Below are positions 241-58,545 of a DNA stretch of 64,000 nucleotides, piece after piece. The position numbers and the translations under genes are program-made. The stretch spans positions 22,955 through 86,954 of the forward strand of contig CACFYZ010000001.1 of assembly GCA_902570675.1 (NCBI GenBank), read 5' to 3'. The DNA is from an uncultured Pelagibacteraceae bacterium. GTDB taxonomy: Bacteria > Pseudomonadota > Alphaproteobacteria > Pelagibacterales > AG-422-B15. Under the pieces are notes generated by a model. That model saw nothing but the letters and a program-made list of their open reading frames with translations. It searched no databases and was not told the DNA's origin. Position 1 is the first letter of the stretch; the number at the start of each line of letters is the position of its first letter.

Positions 241-1426
241 TATAAAAAAGGTAGTGCTTGCTTATTCAGGGGGGCTAGATACTTCTGTCATTTTAAAATG
301 GTTAAAAGAGACCTATAACTGTGAAGTTGTAACATTTACTGCCGATCTTGGACAGGATGAAGATTTTAACTCTGTTAAACTAAAAGCTGAACAACAAGGT
401 ACAAAGGAAATTTTCATTGAAGATTTAAAAGAGGAGTTTGTTAGTGATTATGTCTTTCCTATGTTTAGAGCAAATCCATTATACGAGGGCTACTATCTTT
501 TGGGCACGTCTATAGCGAGACCATTAATTGCCAAAAAGCAAATTGAAATTGCTAATAAAGTGAATGCAGATGCAGTGTCGCACGGCGCAACAGGTAAAGG
601 CAATGATCAAATTAGATTTGAATTAGGTTACTATTACCATAAATCTGATATTAAAATCATCAGTCCGTGGAGGGAATGGGATCTTACCTCAAGGACCTCA
701 CTTGTTGAATATGCTGATAAGCATGGCATTGAAATAGCAAAAGATAAGAGGGGAGAGCAGCCATTTAGTATTGATGAAAATATATTACATTCCTCGGCTG
801 AAGGAAAAGTTTTAGAAGATCCAAATCAAGAGGCGCCTGAATATGTGTATTCAAGATCAGTTTCGCCATATGACGCTCCTGATAAGCCAGAAGAATTATC
901 GATTGAATTTAAATCTGGAGATGCATGCTCAGTGAATAACTTAACTATGAGCCCATTTGAAATTTTAAGAAAACTCAATGAATTAGGTGGAAAACATGGT
1001 GTAGGCAGAATTGATTTAGTTGAAAATAGATATATTGGAATGAAATCCAGAGGAGTTTATGAAACTCCAGGGGGTACAATTTTATATCATGCTCACCGAG
1101 CTATTGAGAGCCTTACACTTGATAAGGAAGCCGCTCACATGAAAGATAGCGCCAGTCCTAAATATGCAGAACTAATTTACAATGGCTATTGGTTTTCTCC
1201 AGAAAGAGATATGCTTCAATCAATGATTGATCAAAGTCAAAAAAATGTTGAGGGAACAGTCAATCTTAAACTCTATAAAGGAAATGTTATTATTACTGGA
1301 CGACAATCAGACAAAAGTTTGTACAACCCTGATCTAGCAACATTTGAGTCAGATAACATCTACAGTCAAAAAGATTCTGAGGGATTTATTAAGCTGAATG
1401 CTCTTAGACTAAGAGACAAAAAATAA
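233..1426 (+). CDS. argG: Argininosuccinate synthase
   Basis: 397-aa ORF with the N-terminal ATP motif AYSGGLDTS, plus [13 protein letters not shown] and [19 protein letters not shown] blocks typical of type-1 ArgG. Confidence 0.95.
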
Positions 1427-1466
1427 GTTACGAAGCAAAAGCTACAAGGTAATAAAGATTCAGTAA

Positions 1467-2732
1467 TTAGTTAAAATAAATTATTGTGCATAATAGTATT
1501 GCAATCAAATAAATACTGATATGTGAAAATGCTAACCTTATATGGTTAAGTTGAAAAATTTTGTATACAAAAATTTTAATGAAAACAAAAATACCAATTG
1601 AAATATAACTTATGAAATATAAAGCATCATAAAAAGTTATATAAGGCGTTACGGGTAGAGAATCATTTACTACGAGACTAAAAATAGTCATTGTTACTAG
1701 AAGAGTAATTGAGTCTCCTACAACTCGATCATTAATGAAACCGTATAATGAAAATGATACCAATGTTATAAAAAATAGAGGCAATATAAATTTAAAAACA
1801 AAAGAATAACTGACTCTTGAAGCAACAAAATCCATTCTAATAGCTTGTGATCCACCCACCGAACCAAAATTTATATTCACATTATCAATTGAAAATTCAG
1901 GAGTATTAATAAATTGGAAATTATTTTGATTCAAAAAATTAAATTTTTTCACATAATAACTGGATGGAAAAATTTTTGCAGAGTCATCCATGTTCAATCT
2001 TATGACTGTTTGAATATTATGAGAGTCAAAAGGAAATTTAGATAAGTCAAAATTAGATTTGTCAAATTGATACGTATAATTTTTAAAGAAGTATTCAACT
2101 GTGCCGTCATAATAAACGTTTATCTTTGAACTTATGCTGCCAATATCGATAATCTGAGCATTTTCAAAGTTGATTGAAAGGTCTGGAAACTTATTAGTCT
2201 CTATATTTTCTAATAAATTATATTCACAAATAATTGCACTTTCACTGTTTGCTGATTGGTTTTCTTCAATATTTTTTTTTACCTCATTCATTTCTTTCAA
2301 AATATTCATATCGAATGATTGAAACTGAAATAGAGCTGTATTCATCTCCTTAGCTTGAAATTTAAATGACTGCTCTAAAAAATTGATATTATATTTGAAC
2401 TCTTTGGGCCTAAGGATTATTGATTTTATGATATTGTCATATTGAACATTTAAATTTTGGGTGTTGAAACGACTAAAATCAATTTCATTGTAGAGAACAT
2501 CACAGTTTTCTGCAGAGAGTAATTGATAGAATCTAGGGTCAGATGAATATTCATTAGAAGTAATAGTTTCATCATTTTCAATTAGTGATTCAGTAAATAA
2601 CAAATCACTATTATCTGTGATTGTCCCCACAGAATGAGAAATGGAAGGAATTAATAAAAAAAATAGGAATAAAAACTTATTTAAGTGAGTCTGCATAAGC
2701 TTTTCCAAGTTTTGCATTGGAAAGTTGTGCAT
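1467..2732 (-). CDS. Prokaryotic pentameric ligand-gated ion channel (Cys-loop receptor superfamily) homologue with extended extracellular domain
   Basis: Signal peptide (MQTHLNKFLFLFFLLIPSISHS; start may be Met13 at 2696). Beta-rich N-terminal domain containing DGTVEY...FDLSKFPFDSHNIQTVI, the FPFD Cys-loop core without cysteines (nt 2025-2036). Pre-M1 Arg, M1 with conserved Pro (YSFVFKFILPLFF), M2-M3 signature ITLLVTMTIFSLVVNDSLPVTPYITFYDALYF. Very short M3-M4 loop and a C-terminal M4. Confidence 0.8.
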   Translation of the reverse strand: MHNFPMQNLEKLMQTHLNKFLFLFFLLIPSISHSVGTITDNSDLLFTESLIENDETITSNEYSSDPRFYQLLSAENCDVLYNEIDFSRFNTQNLNVQYDNIIKSIILRPKEFKYNINFLEQSFKFQAKEMNTALFQFQSFDMNILKEMNEVKKNIEENQSANSESAIICEYNLLENIETNKFPDLSINFENAQIIDIGSISSKINVYYDGTVEYFFKNYTYQFDKSNFDLSKFPFDSHNIQTVIRLNMDDSAKIFPSSYYVKKFNFLNQNNFQFINTPEFSIDNVNINFGSVGGSQAIRMDFVASRVSYSFVFKFILPLFFITLVSFSLYGFINDRVVGDSITLLVTMTIFSLVVNDSLPVTPYITFYDALYFISYISIGIFVFIKIFVYKIFQLNHIRLAFSHISIYLIAILLCTIIYFN

Positions 2733-3774
2733 TACTCCAATACGGAACAGCTACTTCAGCAAATTCTTCCATAGAGTTAAAAACTTCTGCGAAAAAGGTA
2801 TCTGTTTCTTTTAGTTCTTGTATATTTTTGTATGCCGCAGCTGAGAACTCAGTAAAGTAGTCATCTGGTGTATCATGCAAGATGACTCCCTCATCTTCTG
2901 TTAAAATTTTTAATGCCTTACCATTATTCATAATTCTCCTAGCAACAAACTTCATGAGAGACGCGTTGGCAGCAGTTTCAATAGCTTGTTTTTGCTGTTT
3001 TGAAAATTCTTTATATATATCCTTATTGATATATAAATCTCCATTCACTACAACTTGATGTAAACCCTGAAGATAATAATTTTTTAATACTTCGCTTATT
3101 CCATATTGTCTATCTGGAGCAGGACAACACCACTCCGCTGCATCAATAATGCCCTGCTCAAGGGCAGGCAATAAGTCTTTAGCGCCAAGCGACATTGCGT
3201 TAACCCCAACGTCTTTGTACGTTTTACCTGGAAGTCCTGGAGGCGCTCTATACGCACTTACATTATTTCTAAAATCATCCATAGACTCTATTGGGGTGGT
3301 AAACCATCCAAGTGCCTCAGGACCAAATGGAGCCACATGAAATCCAACGATGTCTTTTTCCATTTCTCTCCACAATCTTTTATAAAGTTTTTTTCCACCA
3401 CCATTTAAATACCAAGAGTAGTAAGAAATATTATCAATACCTAAACCAGCACCTGCCATGGGTGAACCAAAAAGCATAGCAGCTGGATGAAATTTATCCC
3501 AATAATGAGTATAGGAAACGCCACAAGCAATTTCATTGGTATGAACAGCCTCTAATATTTGATTTGTTTGTACAAGTGCTCCCGCTTCAACAAATTCAAA
3601 CTCAACTTCTCCATCTGTTAAATCAGATATTTCTTCTGCGAAATCATTTAAATAATCGAGATAACCACCTTCAGGGTCTGATGCCTGACATTCATAAGTT
3701 TCTGCCTGAGTAATGTTTGGAAAAAAAAATAATACTATTAGAAGAGATAAAGTTTTTTTTAAAAAGAAACTCAT
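2677..3774 (-). CDS. TRAP-type (DctP-family) periplasmic solute-binding protein, orphan (no DctQ/DctM nearby)
   Basis: ORF track gives 2677..3855 from a TTG. The ATG at 3774 gives a clean signal peptide MSFFLKKTLSLLIVLFFFPNITQA. Blocks YWDKFHPAAMLFG, FGPEALGWF, LPALEQGIIDAAEW..PA.D and YYLQGLHQ match the DctP-like TRAP binding-protein family as I recall it. Confidence 0.8.
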   Translation of the reverse strand: MSFFLKKTLSLLIVLFFFPNITQAETYECQASDPEGGYLDYLNDFAEEISDLTDGEVEFEFVEAGALVQTNQILEAVHTNEIACGVSYTHYWDKFHPAAMLFGSPMAGAGLGIDNISYYSWYLNGGGKKLYKRLWREMEKDIVGFHVAPFGPEALGWFTTPIESMDDFRNNVSAYRAPPGLPGKTYKDVGVNAMSLGAKDLLPALEQGIIDAAEWCCPAPDRQYGISEVLKNYYLQGLHQVVVNGDLYINKDIYKEFSKQQKQAIETAANASLMKFVARRIMNNGKALKILTEDEGVILHDTPDDYFTEFSAAAYKNIQELKETDTFFAEVFNSMEEFAEVAVPYWSNAQLSNAKLGKAYADSLK

Positions 3775-3979
3775 AGATATAGTATAATTAACCCTTGTAT
3801 TATTAATTGTATAAATTTTAGTTCTATATCTTAACAAGAATGATGGCGATATCAAATATAGAAAAAATCATTCTTATTTTGACACTCTAAAAAATGATAA
3901 CAACATCAAAATTCTTATATGAGTTATTTATGAGAGTATTTATGATTAATTAACTTAATTTATGATGCTATTTCTCAAT

Positions 3980-4873
3980 TTACTTGGATTTTTCTTGTCT
4001 CAATGCAGCATCTAAGGTGTTTTTTAACAAACACGCTATAGTCATTGGTCCAACACCCCCGGGGACAGGTGTAATAGCTGAAGCCACTTCTGCAACACCA
4101 TCATAATCAACATCACCTACCAGTTTGTTTTTGCCTGTATTGGGGTTGTCAACCCTATTGATACCAACATCAATCACAACTGCTCCAGGTTTAATCCAAT
4201 CTTTTTTTACCATTAAAGGTCGTCCAACAGCAGCAACCACAATATCTCCCTGTCTGGTCATCTCTTCAATGTTTTTAGTTTTAGAATGGACAATGCTGAC
4301 AGTGCAAGACTCTTCTAACAGCAACTGAGCCATTGGCTTGCCCACAATATTTGATCGACCAATAATAACGGCATGCAAACCTTTCATATCAGAAATATGC
4401 TTCTTCAGCATTAAGTAGCAACCCAATGGTGTGCATGGTGTAAATGTCTTATTAAGTAAGTCACCACCTATTGAATTTCGTCCGACGTTGATGGCGTGAA
4501 AACCATCTGCATCTTTAATGGGATCAATGGCATCAATAATTAGCCGAGAGTCTATATGTGAAGGCAAAGGCAGTTGAACTAATATCCCATTCACTTTTTG
4601 ATCATTGTTAAGCATATTCACGACTTCAAGTAATTTTTCTTCTGATACAGTTACATCCAAATAATGGTCTTCAACATCCATGCCTATTTCTTTTGCCATT
4701 TTTGACTTGGTGCTAACGTAAACTTGACTTGCGGGATCTTCACCTACGAGCACAACAGCTAATGTAGGAACTTTGCTAAATTTCTTTTTGAAATTCTCTA
4801 TTTTGACGGCAGTTTCAGCTCTAAGCTCGGCCGCTATGAGTTTCCCATCAATAACCTTTGCAACCTTTATCAT
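3980..4873 (-). CDS. folD: Bifunctional methylenetetrahydrofolate dehydrogenase/cyclohydrolase
   Basis: 297 aa with [23 protein letters not shown] and C-terminal [11 protein letters not shown] motifs. Confidence 0.95.
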
Positions 4874-6651: not shown

Positions 6652-7794
6652 CTAGCTTAAATCGACTGTGTAATAAGAGTCTTGTAGCGATGGATCATCA
6701 GAGACAAAGTTTTCATAGCATTGTGACATGCTGTGTTTTCTAACTCCTTTTTGCCCAGCAATGAGAAATTCATCGTTACCTAAATTAACAATTGATGTAT
6801 TGCTTAATCGATCAGACCGTACACATGTTTCAATATTTTTTTTGTTATATAAGTCAACAATTGACACCGTTCCACTATTTCCACTTATAGCAATTCTTCC
6901 ATCATCAAGAATAATCGCATTGGTTAAACTATTTTTGACCCCAATATTTTGGTATTCGAATGTAAACACTTTACAATCTCCATCATACATTCCTCCCTCA
7001 AAACATCCCAGTCCGGTAAACTTGTCAGCAGATGGCTCTTCAGCATTCGGATCTAATTCTTTAGCAATAATGATATTGCCTGACATACCCAATAATAGAT
7101 AGATCCCTACATCAGCTTTGATACCTGACCACAAAGAACCTGGGTAGCCAGTATCAATCGTCATCCATGTCAATCCTTTGTCTGGAGACAAATAAAACTT
7201 ACCTAGCTCGCCTACTGCAAAACCCTCGTTAGCAGCTGATACTCGCCACAACTGGGGATCACTAAAGGCATAGTTAAGATGAGGCTGGTAATCATCATCA
7301 CTAATGAATAAATATCCCCACGAGTTACCACCATCATTTGTTCTAAGTGATAGTGCAAAAGCTCCAAGTGCAATGCCATTTTTATCATCATACATATGAA
7401 TGGATAACAAAGGTGCATCAAAATCGATGTCTTGGAACTGTATGGTCCAGTTCATGCCATTATCACTACTGTGTAAAATCGTTGAATCATGCCCTGTTGC
7501 CCAACAAAGCTCAATCGTTGGACAGCTGATATCTGTAAGCGTATTTGTGTACGGAACATTTTCAGATTGTGTCCAATTTTCCCCATCATCGTCTGAAAAG
7601 ATAATAATGCCGTGCACTCCTACAGCATAGATTCTTCCTGAAACATGCTCCATTGCTGTGATTAGTGCATTCGATGCATACTTGGAAAGCGCTGCTTTTC
7701 CTGATCCAAAATTAAAGTCTGAGGAATACGTCACTGAACTCAAGACGAAAAATATAAGTATTATTTTGAAGAAATTTTTCATCAACTTAGTCAA
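6652..7794 (-). CDS. Secreted BNR/Asp-box repeat beta-propeller protein (Ycf48 / photosystem II stability factor-like family)
   Basis: Signal peptide plus repeated Asp-box motifs SDDDGENW, SSDNGMNW, TNDGGNSW and SPDKGLTW. Stop lies 2 nt from the SDR start. Confidence 0.75.
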   Translation of the reverse strand: MTKLMKNFFKIILIFFVLSSVTYSSDFNFGSGKAALSKYASNALITAMEHVSGRIYAVGVHGIIIFSDDDGENWTQSENVPYTNTLTDISCPTIELCWATGHDSTILHSSDNGMNWTIQFQDIDFDAPLLSIHMYDDKNGIALGAFALSLRTNDGGNSWGYLFISDDDYQPHLNYAFSDPQLWRVSAANEGFAVGELGKFYLSPDKGLTWMTIDTGYPGSLWSGIKADVGIYLLLGMSGNIIIAKELDPNAEEPSADKFTGLGCFEGGMYDGDCKVFTFEYQNIGVKNSLTNAIILDDGRIAISGNSGTVSIVDLYNKKNIETCVRSDRLSNTSIVNLGNDEFLIAGQKGVRKHSMSQCYENFVSDDPSLQDSYYTVDLS

Positions 7795-7813
7795 GCCTGT
7801 TTTTAATAAATTA

Positions 7814-7844
7814 AAACCCGACTTAAAAATATCAAGTCGGGTTT
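7814..7844 (-). terminator. Candidate intrinsic terminator/attenuator between the DUF1329 and BNR genes
   Basis: Perfect 11-bp inverted repeat AAACCCGACTT / AAGTCGGGTTT with a 9-nt loop. On the minus-strand transcript it is followed by UAAUUUAUU. Confidence 0.5.
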
Positions 7845-7866
7845 AATTATAAGTTTATTAAGATTA

Positions 7867-9087
7867 TTATCTTGCGTATCTTCTTAAACCGTCAGGCGTA
7901 TAGAAGCTTGCAGGTTTTTCTTCAGTGCCATTGTAAACAGGAAGCTGTGAATAGAATGCTTCACCAAATACATTGTTTCCTGAGTAAGATCGTGTCGCTA
8001 AATCAAAAGTGAATTCTCCTTGAGAGAAACACTCAGTGGCTTTTGATGCACCAAATTGTCCAGCTATGACTGTGCCAATATATGTTCTCATCAAATCACC
8101 ATTACCATCATACATGTCATGAAGCGCTAAATGATAGTATTCATCATCCATGAAGTAGAATGTACGAGACTCGTATAAGTGCCTTTGGCCCGGTTTTAAT
8201 TGAGCGTGAACAACATGAACATCTCTTTCTTCAAAGCGAACATGATCAGGGTTTAAGTGATGACGTGTGTGCGATTCTTCAACTGGCGTATTCATCAGCA
8301 CATCATTATACATTGGTACTAAAGCTTTTTTCATGCCTTCATAACTCCAATCGTATTTGTCCTGTGCTCCATTAAAGCCATTGTACTGGTCGATTGTGAT
8401 AATACCACCGCCCGCATTAAGAACTGTATCATAAGAAATATTTGGTGCTCTTCTAACACGTCTGGTTGCTGGCGCATAACCCCAAGCTTTTCGCGGTTGA
8501 ATATAACTGTCAATATAGTCATGAACAAGTGTAACTACCCCAGCTGTTCTTGGTGGTCCAAGGTTTTTCTGCATGAACATCGCATAAATGTTTGGATCCG
8601 CATATTGAGATATTGTGTTTGGATTTCTTGGGAAGACAATGTCTGTTACTTGCTGACCAATCACGATTGATCCATCCGCTGCAACGTTTGTTGACGTTCC
8701 TACTCGAGCCACGTTTGAAACATAGCTTGAATTCATTCTGAAATTCCAGACGAAATGTTGAGGATGCGTTGGATTTGGGAAAGGTATTTGTCCAACGTTT
8801 GGCGCCTCAAAACCTTCGTTATCATTCACTAATGTTCCATTAGTTTGAGACATTGCTTTGATATCATCTGGCGCTTCACACGCTGGAGAATTTTCATACA
8901 CATCGATTCGAAACGTATCAGGATATGCAATGAATAAAGCTTTTTGTCCTGGTGTTAACATATCCGCATATTCAATGAAATTTGCGGATGTCACAGAATA
9001 CTTAACCTCCGCAAATACTGCAGTCGAAGAAAATGCTAAAGAAGCAATCAGAGCTGTAATTAATTTTTTAATTTTAGATTTCATCAT
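7867..9087 (-). CDS. DUF1329 family protein (LolA-like, outer-membrane lipoprotein-sorting-like)
   Basis: Signal peptide. N-terminal block YADMLTPGQKALFIAYPDTFRIDVY matches the DUF1329 family pattern as I recall it. Lies 17 nt downstream of a DUF1302 gene, the canonical pairing. Confidence 0.7.
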   Translation of the reverse strand: MMKSKIKKLITALIASLAFSSTAVFAEVKYSVTSANFIEYADMLTPGQKALFIAYPDTFRIDVYENSPACEAPDDIKAMSQTNGTLVNDNEGFEAPNVGQIPFPNPTHPQHFVWNFRMNSSYVSNVARVGTSTNVAADGSIVIGQQVTDIVFPRNPNTISQYADPNIYAMFMQKNLGPPRTAGVVTLVHDYIDSYIQPRKAWGYAPATRRVRRAPNISYDTVLNAGGGIITIDQYNGFNGAQDKYDWSYEGMKKALVPMYNDVLMNTPVEESHTRHHLNPDHVRFEERDVHVVHAQLKPGQRHLYESRTFYFMDDEYYHLALHDMYDGNGDLMRTYIGTVIAGQFGASKATECFSQGEFTFDLATRSYSGNNVFGEAFYSQLPVYNGTEEKPASFYTPDGLRRYAR

Positions 9088-9104
9088 TTTTTACCTTTCC
9101 CTAA

Positions 9105-12100
9105 TTAAAATGATTGAGATATTGATAGAGATAAGTAGTCCTGATCTTCAAGGCTTTGTACATACTTATCGCCCAAATCCATGAAGTCTACATAAGTTCC
9201 AGTGATGTTCATATCTCCCTTGGAGAAAGATACGCTCGCAGAAAATGATAGTCTATCTTCTGCAAAACCACCAATTGATGATGGTGCAAAACCGTGGAAA
9301 TCATGAGAGACCACAACTGTTGGTGTCAGTGTCCATGGTGAATTGTTAAAGTTTTGATATGTTGCTGTTCCTAACAATCTATAAGTTGCAGCAAAATCAT
9401 CAGCCCCCGGCTTATCACCACAATAACCTCCATTACCAAACAATCCATCCACTAGACCTGAACCAATATTGGTCATAGATCGTGTAGAAGTATGAAGGTT
9501 GGTATAGCCAGCCGCAAGAGCTGCAATGGCTGGTGTTGAGTTAGCTGCTATGACGGAAGCTATGGATTCAAAAGCACCCAGACATTTATTTGTTGAGGCG
9601 GCAACACCTTCGTTGAAACCATTTCTTGCAAGATAACCGTTAGCGTTATCATCCATATCCATAACAGAGACAAAACCAACTTCAGTGACTAAGGCACTTG
9701 AGTCAGCGCCTAATGCCGCCGTTACTGGGTGAGTTGCAGTAAAGGCTGTTGTTGTGCCCAGTGTTCCACTGAGGACATCATATTCAATAAATGGTTTTGA
9801 ATAGTACCAATTACCTGAATAAGCGGCTAAAGACGAAATTGTATTGCCGTTATCATCAACGACATTACCTAGTGATGATCGTTCGTATGCATCGATTGCA
9901 TCAAAGAAATCAGTACCTAGTGATGAACTAGTGGCGGCGAGTGTGCCTTCTACTACAGAAATAAAACTAGCTAAACCAGCTGAACCAGCTGCACTAGATA
10001 CATCAATACCAGCAACTGCAAACATGTTCAGAAGGTCTGTAGAGCCATTTTTGTCAAAAATTTGGTTCAACTGATCACCAGCGCCCGTTGCCAAAGGAAA
10101 ATCAGGACGATAAGCAAGCTCACCCTGAAGTGTTGTACCATTAACATTGGTATTGAAACTCAAACCCAATACTTGATTATCTTCTGGAAAGATAGCTCTG
10201 TAAGTGGTTGCATTCATTGGCACTAAGGCTGATGCCAGTCTGATTCCATATAGTGCGCTACCTCCAAGTGCTGTTGCTCCACTAGATAGATTTGTTGCGG
10301 CACACAGAGATGAGTCATGAACTATCTCACCATTGATTACTAAGCCATGTAAGGCTTGTTGAACCGCACGGTCAACTGGACTTCGTGTATTTCCACTATA
10401 ACCATAAAGTGGTCTTAAACCTGTCCCTAGAACGATGTCACATAGACCTTGGGCAAAAGCAATATCATCCATACCTTTTTTCAAATTTTGAAAACCTGTG
10501 TTTACAGATGCAGTCGCGCTTGCATCAAATACTCCGGTGGAATGACTGGAGATACCGACACCAGTTAAATCACTTGTCGCCCAGTCACCATGAGCCAATG
10601 CAATTGCTCCAAGTATATCTTGCGCAAATACACCATTTGGCATTACGGCTTGGAAATAAGGTACTTTTGATGTGTAATTAGCATAGTACATACCAATATC
10701 TAAACCTGTTCCGATAGTATCAAAGTATTTACCCCATCTTAAACCGTAGTCAGAGCCATCAGGGTCTTTAAATTTTCCATTTGGATTAGCAAAAATTGAT
10801 ACATTTGCGCCTTTTCGATAATCCGGTGTAAACAAATTAGAATAGCCAGTCATCGCTTTGGCTACAGAACTGGCAGCTGCAATGTTACCTTTACTATCAT
10901 CAGAATCACCTGAGTTAGAAGCACTAGGAGCTGCTGAAGTTGCCGATCCAAGGAATTCGTGAGCTGCTCCAAGACCCATTGACTGAGTTACTGCTGTTGC
11001 ATCTAAGGCCTTAAGACCAGCCACAATAAAACTTGTTGCATCATAATCTGACCAATTCGTTGCGTGACGCGAGTAAGCTGCAATATTGGCTGCCGTGCAT
11101 GCATGACCGGCCCCAGCTGTGAAAAGTCCACCCGTCCCTGCTGCTGCTAACGTAGCACCACCTACCATTGAATATGGACAGGCCGCAGGTGAATTTCTTT
11201 CAAGGTCATTTGTGCCAGATGCATCAAGTTGACCATAACCATCGCCAAATAATTCACTTCCAAAATATGATCCTTTTGGACCCAACTTAACTTGTTCATG
11301 GTTGAACTGATAATATCCTTCAAGCGTTGAGCCATCAGATAATGCTGTTGTTATTGTTACTTGTTCCGTTGGTATCAAAGCTTCTTTAATTGAAGAACTT
11401 GGTGATAGTAATTTTGGAAGGTCTAAAGCGTTTGTAACAAAACCGTTAAGACCTATTGGAATAAATGTTGACTCACCCCAACTCGTTACATAACGACCAA
11501 ATTGAACATCAACAAAACTATCCGCCACATCAAAGCTGGTGACGGCATAAGCATCGAGAATATCTATTGCTGATTCAAAATCATCTTGGGCCGGCGCTTC
11601 AAAAGTTTTAAACTGGGGAGCGTTTATATCTAATGCCGGGTTAACCGAAGCCACGAATGATAAATTTAAACTTGTGCCATTATCAGTGACCCCACTGATT
11701 TCAGAATAGAGTGATTGAGTCGCATCAAAAATATCACCACGTTGGAAGTTTAATGGACCATCAGTAGCGTTGTCATTACCGTATGAGAAAAGGGTATCGG
11801 TAGTATTTCCGTAAGAGTCTGAGGTTGCTTGACCACAACCTTGACCTGATCCATCAATAACTGTCAAGAGTGTTGCTGCATCAGCAGCAGATAAACCTCG
11901 AGTTGCTGTCATGTAGCCACCCAAAGCTTGAGCTGTTGTTAAAGATTGGCCGTTTGATGTTACCGTTACTGTATCTTCACCAAGAAGAGTTTGATGGTTT
12001 TGTCCTACAGTATATTTCCAACCTGCAAGCAGTCGACAATCTTGTGACTGAACACGTGCAGAAAATCCTGAAGTGAATGTCGTGTTCGCTGTACCAGTAA

Positions 12101-12203
12101 AACCTGGTATGTTAATTTCGGCAGCATGTGATGATATCCACGCACCTGATGTAAGTGACAAGAATAATGTACTTACTGAAATAAATTTTAAAAATTTATT
12201 CAT
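9105..12203 (-). CDS. DUF1302 family outer-membrane protein, unusually large (1032 aa)
   Basis: Signal peptide MNKFLKFISVSTLFLSLTSGAWISSHA. DUF1302 hallmark DILDAYAV....FGRYVTSWGESTFI (GRYVTSWGESTF = nt 11463-11498). Gly/Ala/Ser/Thr-rich with alternating beta-strand-like segments. C-terminal ...SLSISQSF ends in the terminal Phe typical of beta-barrel OMPs. Strong SD AAGGGGGG upstream. Confidence 0.75.
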   Translation of the reverse strand: MNKFLKFISVSTLFLSLTSGAWISSHAAEINIPGFTGTANTTFTSGFSARVQSQDCRLLAGWKYTVGQNHQTLLGEDTVTVTSNGQSLTTAQALGGYMTATRGLSAADAATLLTVIDGSGQGCGQATSDSYGNTTDTLFSYGNDNATDGPLNFQRGDIFDATQSLYSEISGVTDNGTSLNLSFVASVNPALDINAPQFKTFEAPAQDDFESAIDILDAYAVTSFDVADSFVDVQFGRYVTSWGESTFIPIGLNGFVTNALDLPKLLSPSSSIKEALIPTEQVTITTALSDGSTLEGYYQFNHEQVKLGPKGSYFGSELFGDGYGQLDASGTNDLERNSPAACPYSMVGGATLAAAGTGGLFTAGAGHACTAANIAAYSRHATNWSDYDATSFIVAGLKALDATAVTQSMGLGAAHEFLGSATSAAPSASNSGDSDDSKGNIAAASSVAKAMTGYSNLFTPDYRKGANVSIFANPNGKFKDPDGSDYGLRWGKYFDTIGTGLDIGMYYANYTSKVPYFQAVMPNGVFAQDILGAIALAHGDWATSDLTGVGISSHSTGVFDASATASVNTGFQNLKKGMDDIAFAQGLCDIVLGTGLRPLYGYSGNTRSPVDRAVQQALHGLVINGEIVHDSSLCAATNLSSGATALGGSALYGIRLASALVPMNATTYRAIFPEDNQVLGLSFNTNVNGTTLQGELAYRPDFPLATGAGDQLNQIFDKNGSTDLLNMFAVAGIDVSSAAGSAGLASFISVVEGTLAATSSSLGTDFFDAIDAYERSSLGNVVDDNGNTISSLAAYSGNWYYSKPFIEYDVLSGTLGTTTAFTATHPVTAALGADSSALVTEVGFVSVMDMDDNANGYLARNGFNEGVAASTNKCLGAFESIASVIAANSTPAIAALAAGYTNLHTSTRSMTNIGSGLVDGLFGNGGYCGDKPGADDFAATYRLLGTATYQNFNNSPWTLTPTVVVSHDFHGFAPSSIGGFAEDRLSFSASVSFSKGDMNITGTYVDFMDLGDKYVQSLEDQDYLSLSISQSF

Positions 12204-56685: not shown

Positions 56686-57990
56686 TTATAGAATATACTT
56701 TGTAAGATCTGTATCTTTTGACAATTCGCTGACATTATTTTTAACATACTCTGCATCAATTGTAATTTTTTCACCACCTTTGTCCGCAGCTGTGAAACTA
56801 ATATCCTCAAGTACTCTCTCTAAAATTGTGTGAAGTCTTCTTGCACCAATATTTTCAATTGTCGAATTAATGTCAACAGCCAGTGTAGCAATTGCATCAA
56901 TTCCGTCTTCACTGAAATTGATCTTTACATCTTCAGTGTTTAGAAGAGCCTCATACTGTTTAATCAAGCTGTACTTTGGTTCCCTTAAAATTCTTTTAAA
57001 ATCTTCTTGTGTCAGCGCTTTGAGGCTGACTCTTATTGGTAATCTGCCCTGTAATTCAGGCAATAAATCTGAAGGCTTTGAGAGTTGAAATGCTCCAGAT
57101 GCTATGAATAAGATATGATCAGTTTTTATAGTACCGTGTTTAGTATTTACAGTAGTTCCTTCAATTAAAGGCAAGAGATCTCTTTGAACTCCTTCTCGAG
57201 AAACATCACCTCCAACACGCTCAGATCTTGCGCAAACTTTATCGATTTCGTCAATAAAAACTATTCCATTATCTTCAACAGATCTTTTAGCTTCATTAAT
57301 AATTTGATCCGTATCTATTAATTTATCTGACTCTTCATTTACCAGGATTTCATAAGACTCACCGACAGTTGTCTTTTTCTTTTTTGTTTTTGGACCCATA
57401 GCTTTTCCCAACATGTCATTAAGGTTGATCATTCCAATGCCTGCCCCTTGTCCACCTTGTAGGTCTATTGTTGGAAAAGATCCGGTATCCTGAACAGCTA
57501 TTTCGATTTCCTTGTCATCAAGTTCGTTGTTCCTTAATTTTTTTCTAAAGCTCTCGCGCGTAGTAGGTCCTGCTCCAGGGCCAACTAAAGCATCTAACAC
57601 TCTTTCTTCTGCAGCTAATTGAGCCTTTGCTTTGACTTCGTTTCTTTTAATTTCCCTAACCATCGTGATCGCTATCTCAATTAAATCACGAACGATTGAC
57701 TCAACATCTCGACCCACATAACCAACTTCTGTAAATTTAGTTGCTTCAACTTTTATGAATGGAGCTTGAGCAAGTTTTGACAGCCTTCTTGAGATCTCTG
57801 TTTTTCCTATACCAGTAGGACCAATCATAAGAATATTTTTTGGTAGAACCTCTTCCTTCATATCGTCAGAAAGTTGCTGTCTTCGCCATCGATTTCTAAG
57901 AGCAATAGCTACAGATTTTTTTGCGTCGTCTTGACCAATTATGTATCTATCAAGTTCGGAAACAATTTCTCTAGGTGAAAATGATTGCAT
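56686..57990 (-). CDS. hslU: ATP-dependent protease ATPase subunit HslU
   Basis: [16 protein letters not shown], Walker A GPTGIGKT, Walker B VFIDEIDK. 434 aa. Confidence 0.97.
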
Positions 57991-57993
57991 TGA

Positions 57994-58545
57994 TTAATAC
58001 TCAATCTTTTCTAAGGTGATATTACTATTAGTGAATACACAAATTTCACCAGCAATTTTAAGTGACTTAAGTGCTATTTCTTCAGCAGACAAATCCGTAT
58101 CGATTAATGCTTTAGCAGCTGACAAAGCATAATTTCCACCACTACCAATACCAATTACAGATCCCTCAGGATCCAGTACGTCTCCCATACCTGTGATTAA
58201 AAGAGAAGTAGAATTGTCGGCAACAGTTAGCAAAGCTTCTAATCTTCTTAAGTACTTATCTGTTCGCCAATCTTTCGCAAGTTCGACGCAAGCTCGCGTC
58301 AATTGTTTAGGGTGTTTTTCCAGTTTTGCTTCAAGTCTTTCAAATAAAGTAAATGCATCAGCTGTAGCGCCGGCAAAACCAGCAATAACACTTCCATCTC
58401 CAATTTTTCGAACTTTTTGGGCGGTGCCTTTTATTACAGTATTACCTAAACTTACTTGACCATCCCCAGCAACAACAACTTGATTTCCTTTTCGGACACT
58501 TATAATAGTGGTTCCATGCCATGATGGATTTTGATTATTATTCAT
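57994..58545 (-). CDS. hslV: ATP-dependent protease subunit HslV
   Basis: [26 protein letters not shown] with the catalytic Thr. 183 aa. Confidence 0.97.

What the first reader, a model, noticed from the sequence alone, without database searches (positions are those of the whole stretch)
1467..3855. Orphan TRAP-type binding protein translationally coupled to a pentameric ligand-gated ion channel homologue
Seen in the sequence: a secreted DctP-family binding protein (2677-3774) has its stop codon inside the first 20-56 nt of the next same-strand ORF, so the pair looks co-transcribed and possibly translationally coupled. No DctQ/DctM permease genes occur anywhere in the 64 kb. The downstream ORF carries a full pLGIC signature: FPFD loop core, Pro-containing M1, ITLLVTMTIF...SLPVTPYITFYD M2-M3, and four TM helices. 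Established: TRAP binding proteins normally hand organic anions to DctQM. Comparative surveys of prokaryotic pLGICs have reported N-terminal fusions to periplasmic-binding-protein-type and other sensor domains. Inference: this may be a split, two-gene version of that idea, in which a high-affinity binding protein presents ligand to the channel or gates it. That would give a streamlined oligotroph an ionotropic nutrient sensor. I am not aware of a described TRAP-SBP/pLGIC partnership.
Basis: partly seen in the sequence, partly recalled or inferred. Interest (0 to 1): 0.8.

Follow-up and report, generated by a model that had tools for sequence, protein, structure and literature searches.

The report
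SAR11 binding protein paired with pentameric channel
In one lineage of the ocean bacterium SAR11, a nutrient-binding protein that normally feeds a TRAP transporter has lost that transporter and is instead always encoded next to a bacterial relative of neurotransmitter-gated ion channels, which suggests, but does not prove, a two-part ligand-gated channel.

Summary
On the minus strand, a secreted DctP/TakP-type TRAP binding protein (3774-2677) ends 20 nt (or 56 nt) inside the next ORF (2696/2732-1467). That ORF is a divergent pentameric ligand-gated ion channel (pLGIC). Evidence: GLIC E 4e-9 by sequence; AF2 pLDDT 86 with Foldseek GLIC/sTeLIC/GABA-A E 1e-18; Pfam below threshold. No DctQ/DctM lies in the 64 kb. 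The host is SAR11 (Pelagibacteraceae).

The overlap itself means little. Half of this genome's neighbouring genes overlap or abut, and one relative has a 99-nt gap instead.

The comparative pattern is informative:
- All 77 loci with the nearest other SBPs (51-60% identity) have DctQ(M) directly downstream.
- Every member of this SBP clade (77-98% identity) has the channel there instead, in two different genomic regions, with channel identity falling to 32%.
- One variant has a second, canonical pLGIC on the SBP's other side.
- The SBP-linked channels are monophyletic and alone have a truncated loop C.
- Both genes are under purifying selection and are transcribed.

The idea is not new in kind: Tasneem et al. 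2005 reported stand-alone PBP-II genes in operons with bacterial pLGICs. A TRAP-type SBP detached from DctQM, in SAR11, appears undescribed. Physical coupling is untested.

The parts
2677..3774 (-). Secreted DctP/TakP-type TRAP-family solute-binding protein, 365 aa. It has no adjacent DctQM.
   Evidence: Pfam PF03480 E 7e-26. Closest solved relatives are 7ug8 ketoacid-binding protein (E 2e-24) and TakP 2hzk. AF2 pLDDT 87; Foldseek 4yzz/7ug8/2hzk E 2e-23, TM 0.80-0.85. dN/dS 0.05-0.10. Covered by metatranscriptome contigs.
3703..3774 (-). Predicted signal peptide of the SBP (MSFFLKKTLSLLIVLFFFPNITQA).
   Evidence: Read directly from the sequence. Homologues are 364-365 aa and start at the same Met. 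AF2 pLDDT is low over residues 1-20.
1467..2696 (-). Divergent pentameric ligand-gated ion channel homologue, 409 aa from ATG 2696 (the ORF extends up to ATG 2732, 421 aa). Layout: signal peptide, about 30 disordered residues, an extracellular beta-sandwich with an inserted helical pair, then four TM helices.
   Evidence: phmmer vs GLIC E 4e-9. TIGR00860 E 8e-9. AF2 pLDDT 86.3. Foldseek GLIC E 8e-19. dN/dS 0.10-0.17.
2677..2732 (-). Junction where the SBP stop codon (TAA 2679-2677) lies inside the channel ORF: a 20-nt overlap if the start is ATG 2696, 56 nt if ATG 2732.
   Evidence: P0031/L073 lacks a Met at the 2696-equivalent position, so the 56-nt form is used there. RNA contigs X1 2587-3150 and X2 2652-2835 cross the junction.
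2025..2036 (-). Pro-loop (Cys-loop equivalent) motif FPFD, residues 221-224 of the 409-aa channel.
   Evidence: P222 is invariant, and F223 and D224 are >=90% conserved, across 64 pLGIC relatives.
1473..1811 (-). Transmembrane domain M1-M4 (helices 296-319, 324-346, 355-380, 385-408), with pre-M1 R294, M1 P306 and M2-M3 P348.
   Evidence: DSSP on the AF2 model. Conserved columns R294, P306, P348. M2 aligned to GLIC M2.
1814..1895 (-). Beta9-beta10 hairpin (loop C region, residues 268-294). It is 8-11 residues shorter than in all non-SBP-linked relatives.
   Evidence: MAFFT alignment of 24 channels. The AF2 strands 268-280 and 283-294 are joined by a 2-residue turn.

Best explanation
This is a conserved two-gene module of a SAR11 lineage.

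Gene 1 is a periplasmic TakP-like TRAP-family binding protein. It keeps the carboxylate/cation-binding core of its family but has a remodelled pocket, and it has been uncoupled from the DctQM permease.

Gene 2 is a divergent pLGIC with intact gating elements: the FPFD Pro-loop, the pre-M1 Arg, the M1 and M2-M3 prolines, and a hydrophobic 9'/13'/16' pore. Its loop C, the lid of the usual agonist site, is truncated.

Most likely mechanism (inferred):
1. The SBP captures a small organic acid in the periplasm.
2. The SBP acts as the channel's ligand-sensing accessory subunit. Either the closed, liganded SBP docks on the pentamer's periplasmic domain, or the SBP hands over or concentrates the ligand there.
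3. This biases channel opening and converts nutrient presence into an ion flux or a change in membrane potential.

Shown here: gene identities, folds, clade-specific linkage, purifying selection, and transcription across the junction.

Inferred: the ligand class, SBP-channel contact, the direction of gating, ion selectivity, and the physiological output.
For: (1) Clean dichotomy among SBP relatives. The SBP scan of metagenome contigs kept 80 loci. The two with >=80% identity (L073, L074) carry the channel downstream. Of the other 78 (51-60% identity), one contig ends 66 nt past the SBP, and all 77 with visible downstream sequence carry DctQ(M). Canonical DctPQM operons are also seen in L069, L071 and L072.

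(2) The pair persists in different settings:
- folD-SBP-channel-argG in the window, L011 and L001-4.
- The same site with a 460-aa ORF inserted between folD and the SBP in L012.
- A different region in L073/L153-155: bestrophin-like gene, pair, pentapeptide genes, secretin.
- A rearranged variant of that region in L074/L156.

(3) In L074/L156 the SBP is flanked on both sides by pLGICs. The upstream one is a canonical 342-aa form (ELIC E 2e-10).

(4) The SBP-linked channels form one clade despite 32-50% identity. They alone share a truncated loop C and lack the GW and SDY aromatic motifs of their relatives.

(5) The SBP clade differs from 85 DctQM-linked relatives at 38 positions that are >=90% conserved in those relatives; 15 of them are invariant there. 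It keeps R176, H90, E153, E214, W215 and Q240. These align with TakP's ligand and cation ligands, with R176 one residue off next to an indel. Changes fall at positions aligned to TakP cavity residues V97, T153 and V245.

(6) Both genes are under purifying selection (dN/dS 0.05-0.17). The SBP is the most conserved gene of the region.

(7) Seawater metatranscriptome contigs cover both genes and cross the junction.

(8) Precedents exist:
- PBP-II genes in operons with pLGICs, and PBP-I fusions (PMC549065).
- A TRAP-family (TAXI) SBP that works with a non-TRAP membrane protein, GltS (PMC12344293).
- Stand-alone Peripla_BP_6 or Peripla_BP_4 genes beside pLGICs in Synechococcus and Chloroflexia.
Against: - There is no direct test of contact or gating; everything is gene context.
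- The whole pattern comes from one narrow lineage: about 32 channel clusters and 2 SBP clusters.
- There are effectively only two independent genomic regions, because L153 and L156 share flanking genes.
- Tight spacing is the default in this genome, and the overlap is absent in L074/L156.
- Other members of the same extended pLGIC subfamily (25-28% identity) sit beside unrelated genes: ATP-grasp, glutaminase-ankyrin, esterase, amine oxidase and AhpC. The subfamily as such therefore does not need an SBP.
- The SBP stays 77-84% identical while the channel drops to 32-50%. This is not what simple interface co-evolution predicts, and it fits an SBP constrained by another conserved partner.
- SAR11 genomes normally hold about three DctPQM sets (PMC11796062). 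Whether this genome has one outside the 64 kb could not be checked.
- The putative selectivity-filter residues are not conserved within the clade: D-R-V in the window against P-S-R in L074 by my hand alignment.
Confidence: 0.47

Rival explanations
1. Orphan SBP serving a DctQM in trans. The SBP is an extra specificity subunit that delivers a new substrate to a DctQM permease encoded elsewhere in the genome. The channel is simply a stable neighbour or co-regulated gene with no physical link to the SBP. It could, for example, respond directly to the same or a related small molecule.
For: - The SBP keeps 144 of the 182 positions that are >=90% conserved in DctQM-linked relatives, including the ligand/cation core.
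- Changes at pocket-aligned positions 88, 150 and 245 look like a specificity switch.
- The SBP is far more conserved than the channel, as expected if it must still fit a conserved permease.
- SAR11 genomes carry about three core DctPQM sets, and rearranged or split arrangements are known (PMC11796062).
- Orphan TRAP SBPs are an acknowledged phenomenon (PMC12344293).
- Gene overlap is uninformative here.
Against: - It does not explain why the pair stays together through relocation, insertion of neighbours and 68% channel divergence.
- It does not explain why one variant adds a second pLGIC on the SBP's other side.
- It does not explain why the linked channels share a truncated loop C.
- Fifteen positions that are invariant in all 85 DctQM-linked relatives are replaced in the clade. 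This is more than a pocket change would need.
Confidence: 0.28
2. Neutral or historical adjacency. The two genes were brought together once in an ancestor of this lineage and have stayed adjacent through vertical inheritance in a compact genome, without functional connection. Both happen to be flexible-genome or island-type periplasmic and membrane genes.
For: - The lineage is narrow.
- L153 and L156 are rearranged versions of one region, so truly independent contexts are few.
- pLGIC genes of the sister subclade occupy many different contexts, so they are mobile.
- One of them (L013) sits by chance-like adjacency after a full DctPQM, while its close relatives L018, L019 and L022 do not.
- Flexible TRAP versions are known to lie in SAR11 genomic islands.
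Against: - Around the pair the neighbours change while the pair does not.
- Flanking proteins are 61-67% identical between L153 and L156, but the SBP is 86-91% identical.
- Loss of DctQM adjacency coincides exactly with gain of the channel.
- Both genes are under purifying selection.
Confidence: 0.12
3. Binding-protein-dependent channel-type uptake. The pLGIC pore itself replaces DctQM as the translocation pathway, and the SBP delivers the organic ion to the pore mouth for facilitated diffusion.
For: - The channel gene sits exactly where DctQM sits in all relatives.
- There is a precedent for a TRAP-family SBP adopting a non-TRAP membrane partner (TAXI-GltS, PMC12344293).
Against: - pLGIC pores are ion channels with a hydrophobic 9' gate, which is present here (V9', I13', L16').
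- A passive pore cannot concentrate a nutrient in an oligotroph.
- The window channel has an acidic residue at -2' and at 20', which would disfavour a carboxylate.
- No pLGIC is known to transport metabolites (my own knowledge).
Confidence: 0.05

Closest known systems
Stand-alone PBP-II genes in conserved neighbourhoods or predicted operons with bacterial pLGICs ('ART-LGICs'), and N-terminal PBP-I fusions (Tasneem, Iyer, Jakobsson & Aravind 2005, PMC549065)
   Same: A periplasmic binding-protein gene sits next to, and on the same strand as, a prokaryotic pLGIC, and the arrangement is conserved across genomes. The same functional proposal was made there: the binding protein cooperates with the channel's ligand sensing.
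   Different: - Here the binding protein is a DctP/TakP-type TRAP SBP whose relatives are otherwise always tied to DctQM.
- The host is non-motile SAR11 (my own knowledge), so the chemotaxis role proposed in 2005 does not fit.
- The linked channels have a truncated loop C.
- No paper found combines pLGIC with TRAP, or SAR11 with a ligand-gated channel.
- The 2005 prediction itself has, to my knowledge, never been tested experimentally.
GLIC / ELIC / sTeLIC / DeCLIC (structurally characterised prokaryotic pLGICs)
   Same: The fold and topology match, as do the Pro-loop FPFD, the pre-M1 Arg, the M1 Pro, the very short M3-M4 loop and the hydrophobic mid-pore.
   Different: - Sequence identity is only 15-17%, below Pfam thresholds.
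- There are about 95 extra N-terminal residues, including an inserted helical pair (116-149) and a conserved Cys65/Cys157 pair.
- Loop C is truncated.
- The partner is a separate SBP gene rather than a fused NTD as in DeCLIC.
TakP and the Synechococcus ketoacid-binding protein 7ug8 (cation-dependent alpha-keto/hydroxy-acid TRAP SBPs)
   Same: The fold matches (TM 0.80-0.85), as does the long C-terminal helix. The residues aligned with the ligand and cation ligands are the same as in this SBP's own DctQM-linked relatives, with the Arg, Glu214 and Trp215 identical to TakP.
   Different: - Identity is only 21-24%.
- No DctQM is adjacent.
- Clade-specific replacements fall at pocket-aligned and family-invariant positions.
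- The ligand is unknown.
TAXI-GltS system of Bordetella pertussis (PMC12344293)
   Same: A TRAP-family SBP is encoded without TRAP membrane genes and works with a different membrane protein.
   Different: That SBP is an elongated dimeric TAXI type, and its partner is a secondary transporter (GltS). Here the SBP is DctP-type, and the candidate partner is an ion channel.
Binding-protein-dependent signalling receptors (MBP-Tar, LuxP-LuxQ, TorT-TorS) and eukaryotic iGluRs built from PBP domains
   Same: Conceptually, a Venus-flytrap binding protein or domain transmits ligand occupancy to a membrane receptor or channel. This rests on my own knowledge and on the discussion in PMC549065.
   Different: The membrane partners are unrelated, so this is an analogy only. 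No homology test applies.

Membership tests
[quoted passage not shown] | Extracellular beta-sandwich followed by four TM helices | tested here: met
   The AF2 model (pLDDT 86.3) has strands over 83-294 and helices at 296-319, 324-346, 355-380 and 385-408. Foldseek matches GLIC at E 8e-19 and sTeLIC/GABA-A at TM 0.72-0.76.
[quoted passage not shown] | Pro-loop motif (aromatic-Pro-x-Asp) in the beta6-beta7 loop, a pre-M1 Arg and an M1 Pro | tested here: met
   FPFD lies at 221-224, with R294 and P306. P222 is invariant, and F223, D224, R294 and P306 are >=90% conserved in a 64-sequence alignment.
[quoted passage not shown] | Curated profile thresholds (Pfam Neur_chan_LBD/Neur_chan_memb; TIGR00860) | tested here: not met
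   Neur_chan_memb scores 16.7 bits against a cutoff of 28.1, and there is no LBD hit. TIGR00860 scores 34.7 against 280. Homology is nevertheless significant by phmmer to GLIC (E 4e-9) and through intermediate relatives that pass Pfam.
[quoted passage not shown] | Orthosteric agonist site capped by loop C with aromatic residues | tested here: inconclusive
   Loop C is 8-11 residues shorter than in all non-SBP-linked relatives, and their GW and SDY aromatics are missing. Whether any agonist pocket remains was not modelled.
[quoted passage not shown] | Pentameric assembly, ion conduction and ligand gating | not testable with these tools
DctP-type TRAP solute-binding proteins | Pfam PF03480 above the gathering score, and a two-lobe Venus-flytrap fold | tested here: met
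   91.6 bits against a cutoff of 23.4. AF2 pLDDT 87. Foldseek gives TRAP SBPs at E 2e-23, TM 0.80-0.85.
DctP-type TRAP solute-binding proteins | Conserved Arg that clamps the substrate carboxylate (TakP R177 / SiaP R147) | tested here: inconclusive
   R176 is invariant in all 85 relatives and in the clade. HMMER places it one residue before TakP R177 and the 7ug8 Arg, next to an indel. Structural equivalence is likely but was not verified in 3D.
DctP-type TRAP solute-binding proteins | Secretion signal | tested here: met
   The N-terminal hydrophobic segment ends in TQA. This is read from the sequence; no predictor was run.
Tripartite TRAP transporter (DctPQM system) | DctQ and DctM membrane genes encoded with the SBP | tested here: not met
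   tblastn finds no hit in the 64-kb window. No DctQ/M lies next to any clade member. In contrast, 77 of 77 paralogue loci have them.
PBP + pLGIC gene-pair class (Tasneem et al. 2005) | A stand-alone periplasmic binding-protein gene adjacent to a pLGIC gene, conserved across genomes | tested here: met
   Same-strand adjacency is seen in the window, L001-4, L011, L012, L005/L073/L153-155 and L074/L156.
PBP + pLGIC gene-pair class (Tasneem et al. 2005) | Functional or physical cooperation of the two proteins | not testable with these tools
   No multimer modelling or experiment is available here. This also remains untested in the literature I could search.

The most novel reading that the evidence does not exclude
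This is a binding-protein-gated ionotropic receptor. The liganded TRAP-type SBP is itself the agonist, as an obligate accessory subunit, of a pLGIC whose own loop-C agonist site has become vestigial. Prokaryotes would then have a split equivalent of PBP-domain-gated channels such as iGluRs. It would also supply the first physiological role for a bacterial pLGIC, in the most abundant marine bacterium.
Probability: 0.3. Interest if true: 0.85.

Novelty: new variant of a known kind. Interest (0 to 1): 0.66.

Why it matters
No biological role is known for any prokaryotic pLGIC. Jaiteh et al. 2016 say so explicitly (PMC4795631). The 2005 prediction that stand-alone binding proteins cooperate with these channels has, as far as I could find, never been tested.

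This module offers a clean test case:
- It consists of two small genes.
- The SBP comes from a family that is easy to express and to screen for ligands.
- It has a natural control, the 51-60% identical paralogue that works with DctQM.
- The channels have a distinctive loop-C truncation.

If the SBP gates the channel, there would be three consequences. TRAP binding proteins would be shown to be recruited to signalling or ion flux rather than transport. SAR11, which has very few classical regulators (my own knowledge), would be shown to sense a nutrient ionotropically. Structural biologists would gain a minimal model for accessory-subunit gating of pLGICs.

If the SBP does not gate the channel, the locus is still a well-defined case of an orphan TRAP SBP whose true membrane partner needs to be found.

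Tried and rejected
1. The DctQM-sized gene pair at 56686-58545 was checked and is HslU/HslV.

2. Promoter and terminator scans of 1300-4100 gave counts equal to shuffled controls, so they are uninformative in this AT-rich DNA.

3. I tested whether the whole extended SAR11 pLGIC subfamily is TRAP-linked.
- L013 has DctP-DctQ-DctM-channel with a 14-nt overlap, and L014, L017 and L024 have a DctPQM 7-8 kb away.
- However, the L013 channel clusters tightly with L018, L019 and L022, which have other neighbours.
- The upstream genes elsewhere are ATP-grasp, glutaminase-ankyrin, esterase, amine oxidase and AhpC.
- I therefore treat this as incidental or island co-location and do not count it as support.

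4. I asked whether the long (630-690 aa) pLGICs recovered here carry fused PBP domains. Pfam sees only the LBD and memb parts, so the fusion claim could not be reproduced on this sample.

5. A profile search of the word-indexed protein database added few distant relatives. The exhaustive representative search was the one that linked the protein to the superfamily.

6. I looked for an empty folD-argG site in other SAR11 loci to show insertion of the pair as a cassette. None of the fetched loci contains those genes without the pair.

7. Ion selectivity was left uncalled. The window reads D(-2') R(-1') V(0'), while L074 reads P-S-R at the same place by hand alignment. No call is justified.


Full report
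**1. What is in the sequence**

Both ORFs of the finding lie on the minus strand.

The upstream one runs from ATG 3774 to TAA 2679-2677 and encodes 365 aa. It begins with a hydrophobic signal-like segment, MSFFLKKTLSLLIVLFFFPNITQA. Homologues are 364-365 aa long and start at the same Met, so ATG 3774 is the likely start rather than the TTG at 3855.

The downstream ORF ends at 1467. It can start at ATG 2732, 2717 or 2696. The last of these gives MQTHLNKFLFLFFLLIPSISHS, again signal-like.

**2. Identity of the two proteins**

The first protein is a DctP-family TRAP solute-binding protein.
- Pfam PF03480 scores E 7e-26, well above threshold.
- Sources label its relatives 'TRAP-type mannitol/chloroaromatic compound transport system substrate-binding protein'.
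- Its nearest solved relatives are the cation-dependent keto/hydroxy-acid binders 7ug8, TakP (2hzk/2hzl) and 2zzv.
- An AF2 model (pLDDT 87) superposes on them at TM 0.80-0.85.

The second protein fails the curated profile thresholds. Neur_chan_memb reaches E 0.009, there is no LBD hit, and TIGR00860 gives E 8e-9, far below its cutoff. It is nevertheless a pLGIC.
- phmmer against PDB sequences gives GLIC at E 4e-9 over residues 174-375.
- An exhaustive search of 1.84 billion representatives gives 188 hits, and most of those tested pass Pfam Neur_chan_LBD and/or Neur_chan_memb.
- An AF2 model built on a 64-sequence alignment (pLDDT 86.3, pTM 0.78) has the beta-sandwich plus four TM helices. It matches GLIC, sTeLIC and GABA-A receptors at Foldseek E 1e-18 to 1e-17.
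- The gating landmarks are present and conserved: FPFD (221-224), pre-M1 R294, M1 P306 and M2-M3 P348.
- Aligned to GLIC M2, the pore reads D(-2') R(-1') G2' T6' V9' I13' L16' D20'.

Three features are unusual:
- About 95 extra N-terminal residues, with a disordered linker (21-51) and an inserted helical pair (116-149).
- A Cys65/Cys157 pair that is invariant in the subfamily.
- A very short beta9-beta10 turn.

NCBI annotates the protein as 'hypothetical protein' in a Pelagibacteraceae bacterium.

**3. Host and the 'orphan' claim**

The window comes from SAR11. The channel is 95% and 82% identical to genes on Pelagibacteraceae single-cell genomes AG-337-G05 and AG-333-D21, with full synteny.

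tblastn with three DctQ and three DctM proteins taken from relatives' operons finds nothing in the 64 kb. A suspicious 183-aa and 434-aa gene pair at 56686-58545 is HslVU. The rest of the genome could not be examined.

**4. Is the overlap meaningful?**

No. Using longest-ORF starts, 20 of 50 same-strand neighbouring ORF pairs in this window overlap. Thirty-six of 50 lie no more than 10 nt apart, and the median spacer is 1 nt. In one divergent version of the pair (L074/L156) the genes are 99 nt apart. 'Translational coupling' is therefore neither special nor conserved.

**5. The comparative signal**

This is the substantive result.

*(a) SBP relatives.* A scan of metagenome contigs with the SBP kept 80 loci.
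- The two with >=80% identity (L073, L074) have the channel directly downstream.
- Of the other 78 (51-60% identity), one contig ends 66 nt past the SBP. All 77 with visible downstream sequence have DctQ, and DctM where the contig is long enough, directly downstream.
- Canonical DctPQM operons were also seen for P0150 (a Pelagibacter isolate), P0042 and P0063.
- In the protein database only two clusters exceed 60% identity to the SBP, at 92% and 77%, with 157 and 96 members.

*(b) Settings of the pair.* The pair occurs in different settings:
- folD-SBP-channel-argG in the window, L011 and L001-4.
- The same site with a 460-aa ORF inserted between folD and the SBP in L012.
- A different region in L005/L073/L153-155, where it is flanked by a bestrophin-like gene, pentapeptide-repeat genes and a secretin.
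- L074/L156, where the order is canonical 342-aa pLGIC, SBP, extended pLGIC, NMT1_3 (TAXI-like), TPR/secretin.

L153 and L156 share NMT1_3, secretin and YHYH genes at 61-67% identity in rearranged order. I therefore count two independent regions, one of them in two variants.

*(c) Monophyly and loop C.* In a neighbour-joining tree the SBP-linked channels (window, L012, L073, L074) form one clade within a SAR11 'extended' pLGIC subfamily. They are only 32-50% identical to each other. They alone have loop C shortened by 8-11 residues and lack the GW and SDY aromatic motifs of their relatives.

*(d) Divergence of the SBP clade.* The clade keeps 144 of the 182 positions that are >=90% conserved in 85 DctQM-linked relatives, and has replaced 38 in all four representatives. 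Fifteen of those 38 are invariant in the relatives.

TakP's ligand and cation ligands are R177, Y100, Q156, E214, W215 and E240 (PMC1839085). By alignment they correspond to R176, H90, E153, E214, W215 and Q240. R176 is one residue off in the alignment, next to an indel. All six are unchanged between the clade and its relatives. Positions aligned to TakP cavity residues V97, T153 and V245 are changed: W88Y, V150F and A245G.

*(e) Selection.* Both genes are under purifying selection: dN/dS is 0.05-0.10 for the SBP and 0.10-0.17 for the channel in unsaturated comparisons. Against L001/L012 the identities are SBP 92-93%, argG 90%, folD 83%, channel 81-82% and SDR 71%. The SBP is unusually conserved, while the channel evolves at an ordinary rate.

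*(f) Transcription.* Seawater metatranscriptome contigs cover the SBP at depth about 5-9 and the 5' half of the channel at about 2-3. Two contigs (2587-3150 and 2652-2835) cross the junction. This is consistent with co-transcription. These are assembled contigs without strand information.

**6. What argues for caution**

- Other members of the extended subfamily (25-28% identity) in other SAR11 genomes have unrelated neighbours: circularly permuted ATP-grasp, glutaminase-ankyrin, esterase, amine oxidase and AhpC.
- One of them (L013) follows a complete DctPQM with a 14-nt overlap. Its close relatives do not, so I do not count it as support.
- The strong conservation of the SBP alongside a fast-diverging channel is not what a co-evolving interface predicts. 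It fits an SBP that must still satisfy another conserved partner.
- SAR11 genomes typically carry about three core DctPQM sets plus flexible ones in genomic islands (PMC11796062).
- The residues at the putative selectivity filter differ within the clade, so even the sign of the conducted ion is unclear.

**7. Mechanism**

I rank the explanations as follows.

*SBP as ligand-sensing accessory of the channel, about 0.47.* The SBP binds a small organic acid, and its liganded form either docks on the pentamer or delivers the ligand to it, biasing gating. The truncated loop C would then mark a channel that no longer relies on a classical agonist pocket. This reading accounts for four observations: the DctQM-for-channel swap, persistence of the pair through relocation, the double-pLGIC variant, and the shared loop-C change.

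*Orphan SBP feeding a DctQM in trans, with the channel merely co-located or co-regulated, about 0.28.*

*Neutral inherited adjacency, about 0.12.*

*Channel as SBP-dependent translocation pore, about 0.05.*

Shown: identities, folds, linkage pattern, selection and transcription. Inferred: everything about contact, gating, ligand and physiological output.

**8. Relation to what is known**

The split PBP + pLGIC idea is not new. Tasneem et al. 2005 described N-terminal PBP-I fusions and stand-alone PBP-II genes in conserved neighbourhoods or predicted operons with bacterial pLGICs. They proposed cooperation, in a chemotaxis frame (PMC549065).

My own sample shows the theme recurring with other PBP families. 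Peripla_BP_6 lies divergently next to a pLGIC in four marine Synechococcus genomes, and Peripla_BP_4 lies next to one in a Chloroflexia MAG.

Pelagibacter was already listed among pLGIC-bearing taxa (PMC4795631). The same paper stresses that no biological role is known for any unicellular pLGIC.

TAXI-GltS shows that a TRAP-family SBP can adopt a non-TRAP membrane partner (PMC12344293).

Full-text searches found no paper combining pLGIC with TRAP transporter, or SAR11 with ligand-gated ion channel.

I therefore rate this a new variant of a known kind: a DctP/TakP-type SBP detached from DctQM and locked to a loop-C-truncated pLGIC in SAR11.

**9. Verdict**

Interest is 0.66.

The decisive work is a DctQM census in complete genomes of this lineage, multimer modelling, an SBP ligand screen, binding assays and electrophysiology with and without liganded SBP.

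Noticed in passing
L074:231-1259 (+) and L156:1281-2309 (+): A second, canonical-length (342 aa) pLGIC gene lies immediately upstream of the clade SBP, so the SBP is flanked by two different pLGICs. It hits ELIC at E 2e-10, and also DeCLIC and GLIC. The arrangement is seen on two independent metagenome contigs.
   Followed up: partly
L156:4814-5749 (+); L153:14876-15817 (-); L074:3812-4381: An NMT1_3 (PF16868, TAXI-like binding-protein family) gene followed by a TPR-secretin gene lies right after, or near, the SBP-channel pair in the second genomic region. No TRAP membrane genes are visible there either.
   Followed up: partly
L013:3301-7699 (+): In another SAR11 single-cell genome (AG-325-L02), a complete DctP-DctQ-DctM operon of a different TRAP subfamily (25% identity to the window SBP) is followed by an extended-subfamily pLGIC that overlaps the end of DctM by 14 nt. 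Close relatives of that channel in other genomes have unrelated neighbours.
   Followed up: partly
L034, L045, L052, L058 (marine Synechococcus); L067:11040-12260: Four Synechococcus genomes have a pLGIC homologue (409-412 aa) with a divergently oriented Peripla_BP_6 (type I PBP, E about 1e-52) as its immediate neighbour. A Chloroflexia MAG has a Peripla_BP_4 gene next to a 652-aa pLGIC. Stand-alone PBP plus pLGIC neighbourhoods therefore recur with different PBP families.
   Followed up: partly
L013-L025, L028, L032, L039, L047, L050, L051, L054, L056, L060, L065 (Pelagibacteraceae): SAR11 genomes carry several distinct pLGIC types: an extended form of 402-428 aa, forms of 460-550 aa, and a 692-aa form with N-terminal regions unassigned by Pfam. 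They sit in many different gene contexts, which suggests a mobile, flexible-genome gene family that is largely annotated as hypothetical.
   Followed up: partly
window 1467-2696 (-), residues C65 and C157: A cysteine pair is invariant across the extended pLGIC subfamily. It lies in the N-terminal helix (62-71) and a beta-strand (154-160). It is not the eukaryotic Cys-loop pair, and it may form a periplasmic disulfide that pins the N-terminal extension.
   Followed up: no
window 2677-3774 vs 233-1426 and 3980-4873: Between this genome and the L001/L012 lineage, the SBP (92-93% aa identity) is more conserved than the core genes argG (90%) and folD (83%). That is unusually strong constraint for a periplasmic binding protein.
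   Followed up: partly
window 6652-12203 (-): A gene cluster encodes a BNR/PSII_BNR-like protein, DUF1329 and DUF1302 (a 1032-aa ORF). It lies upstream of the SDR-GATase-YggT-FolD genes and is syntenic in L001/L002. Its function was not examined.
   Followed up: no
window 56686-58545 (-): This is an HslV/HslU protease pair whose sizes (183 and 434 aa) mimic DctQ and DctM. It could be mistaken for a TRAP permease by length alone.
   Followed up: yes
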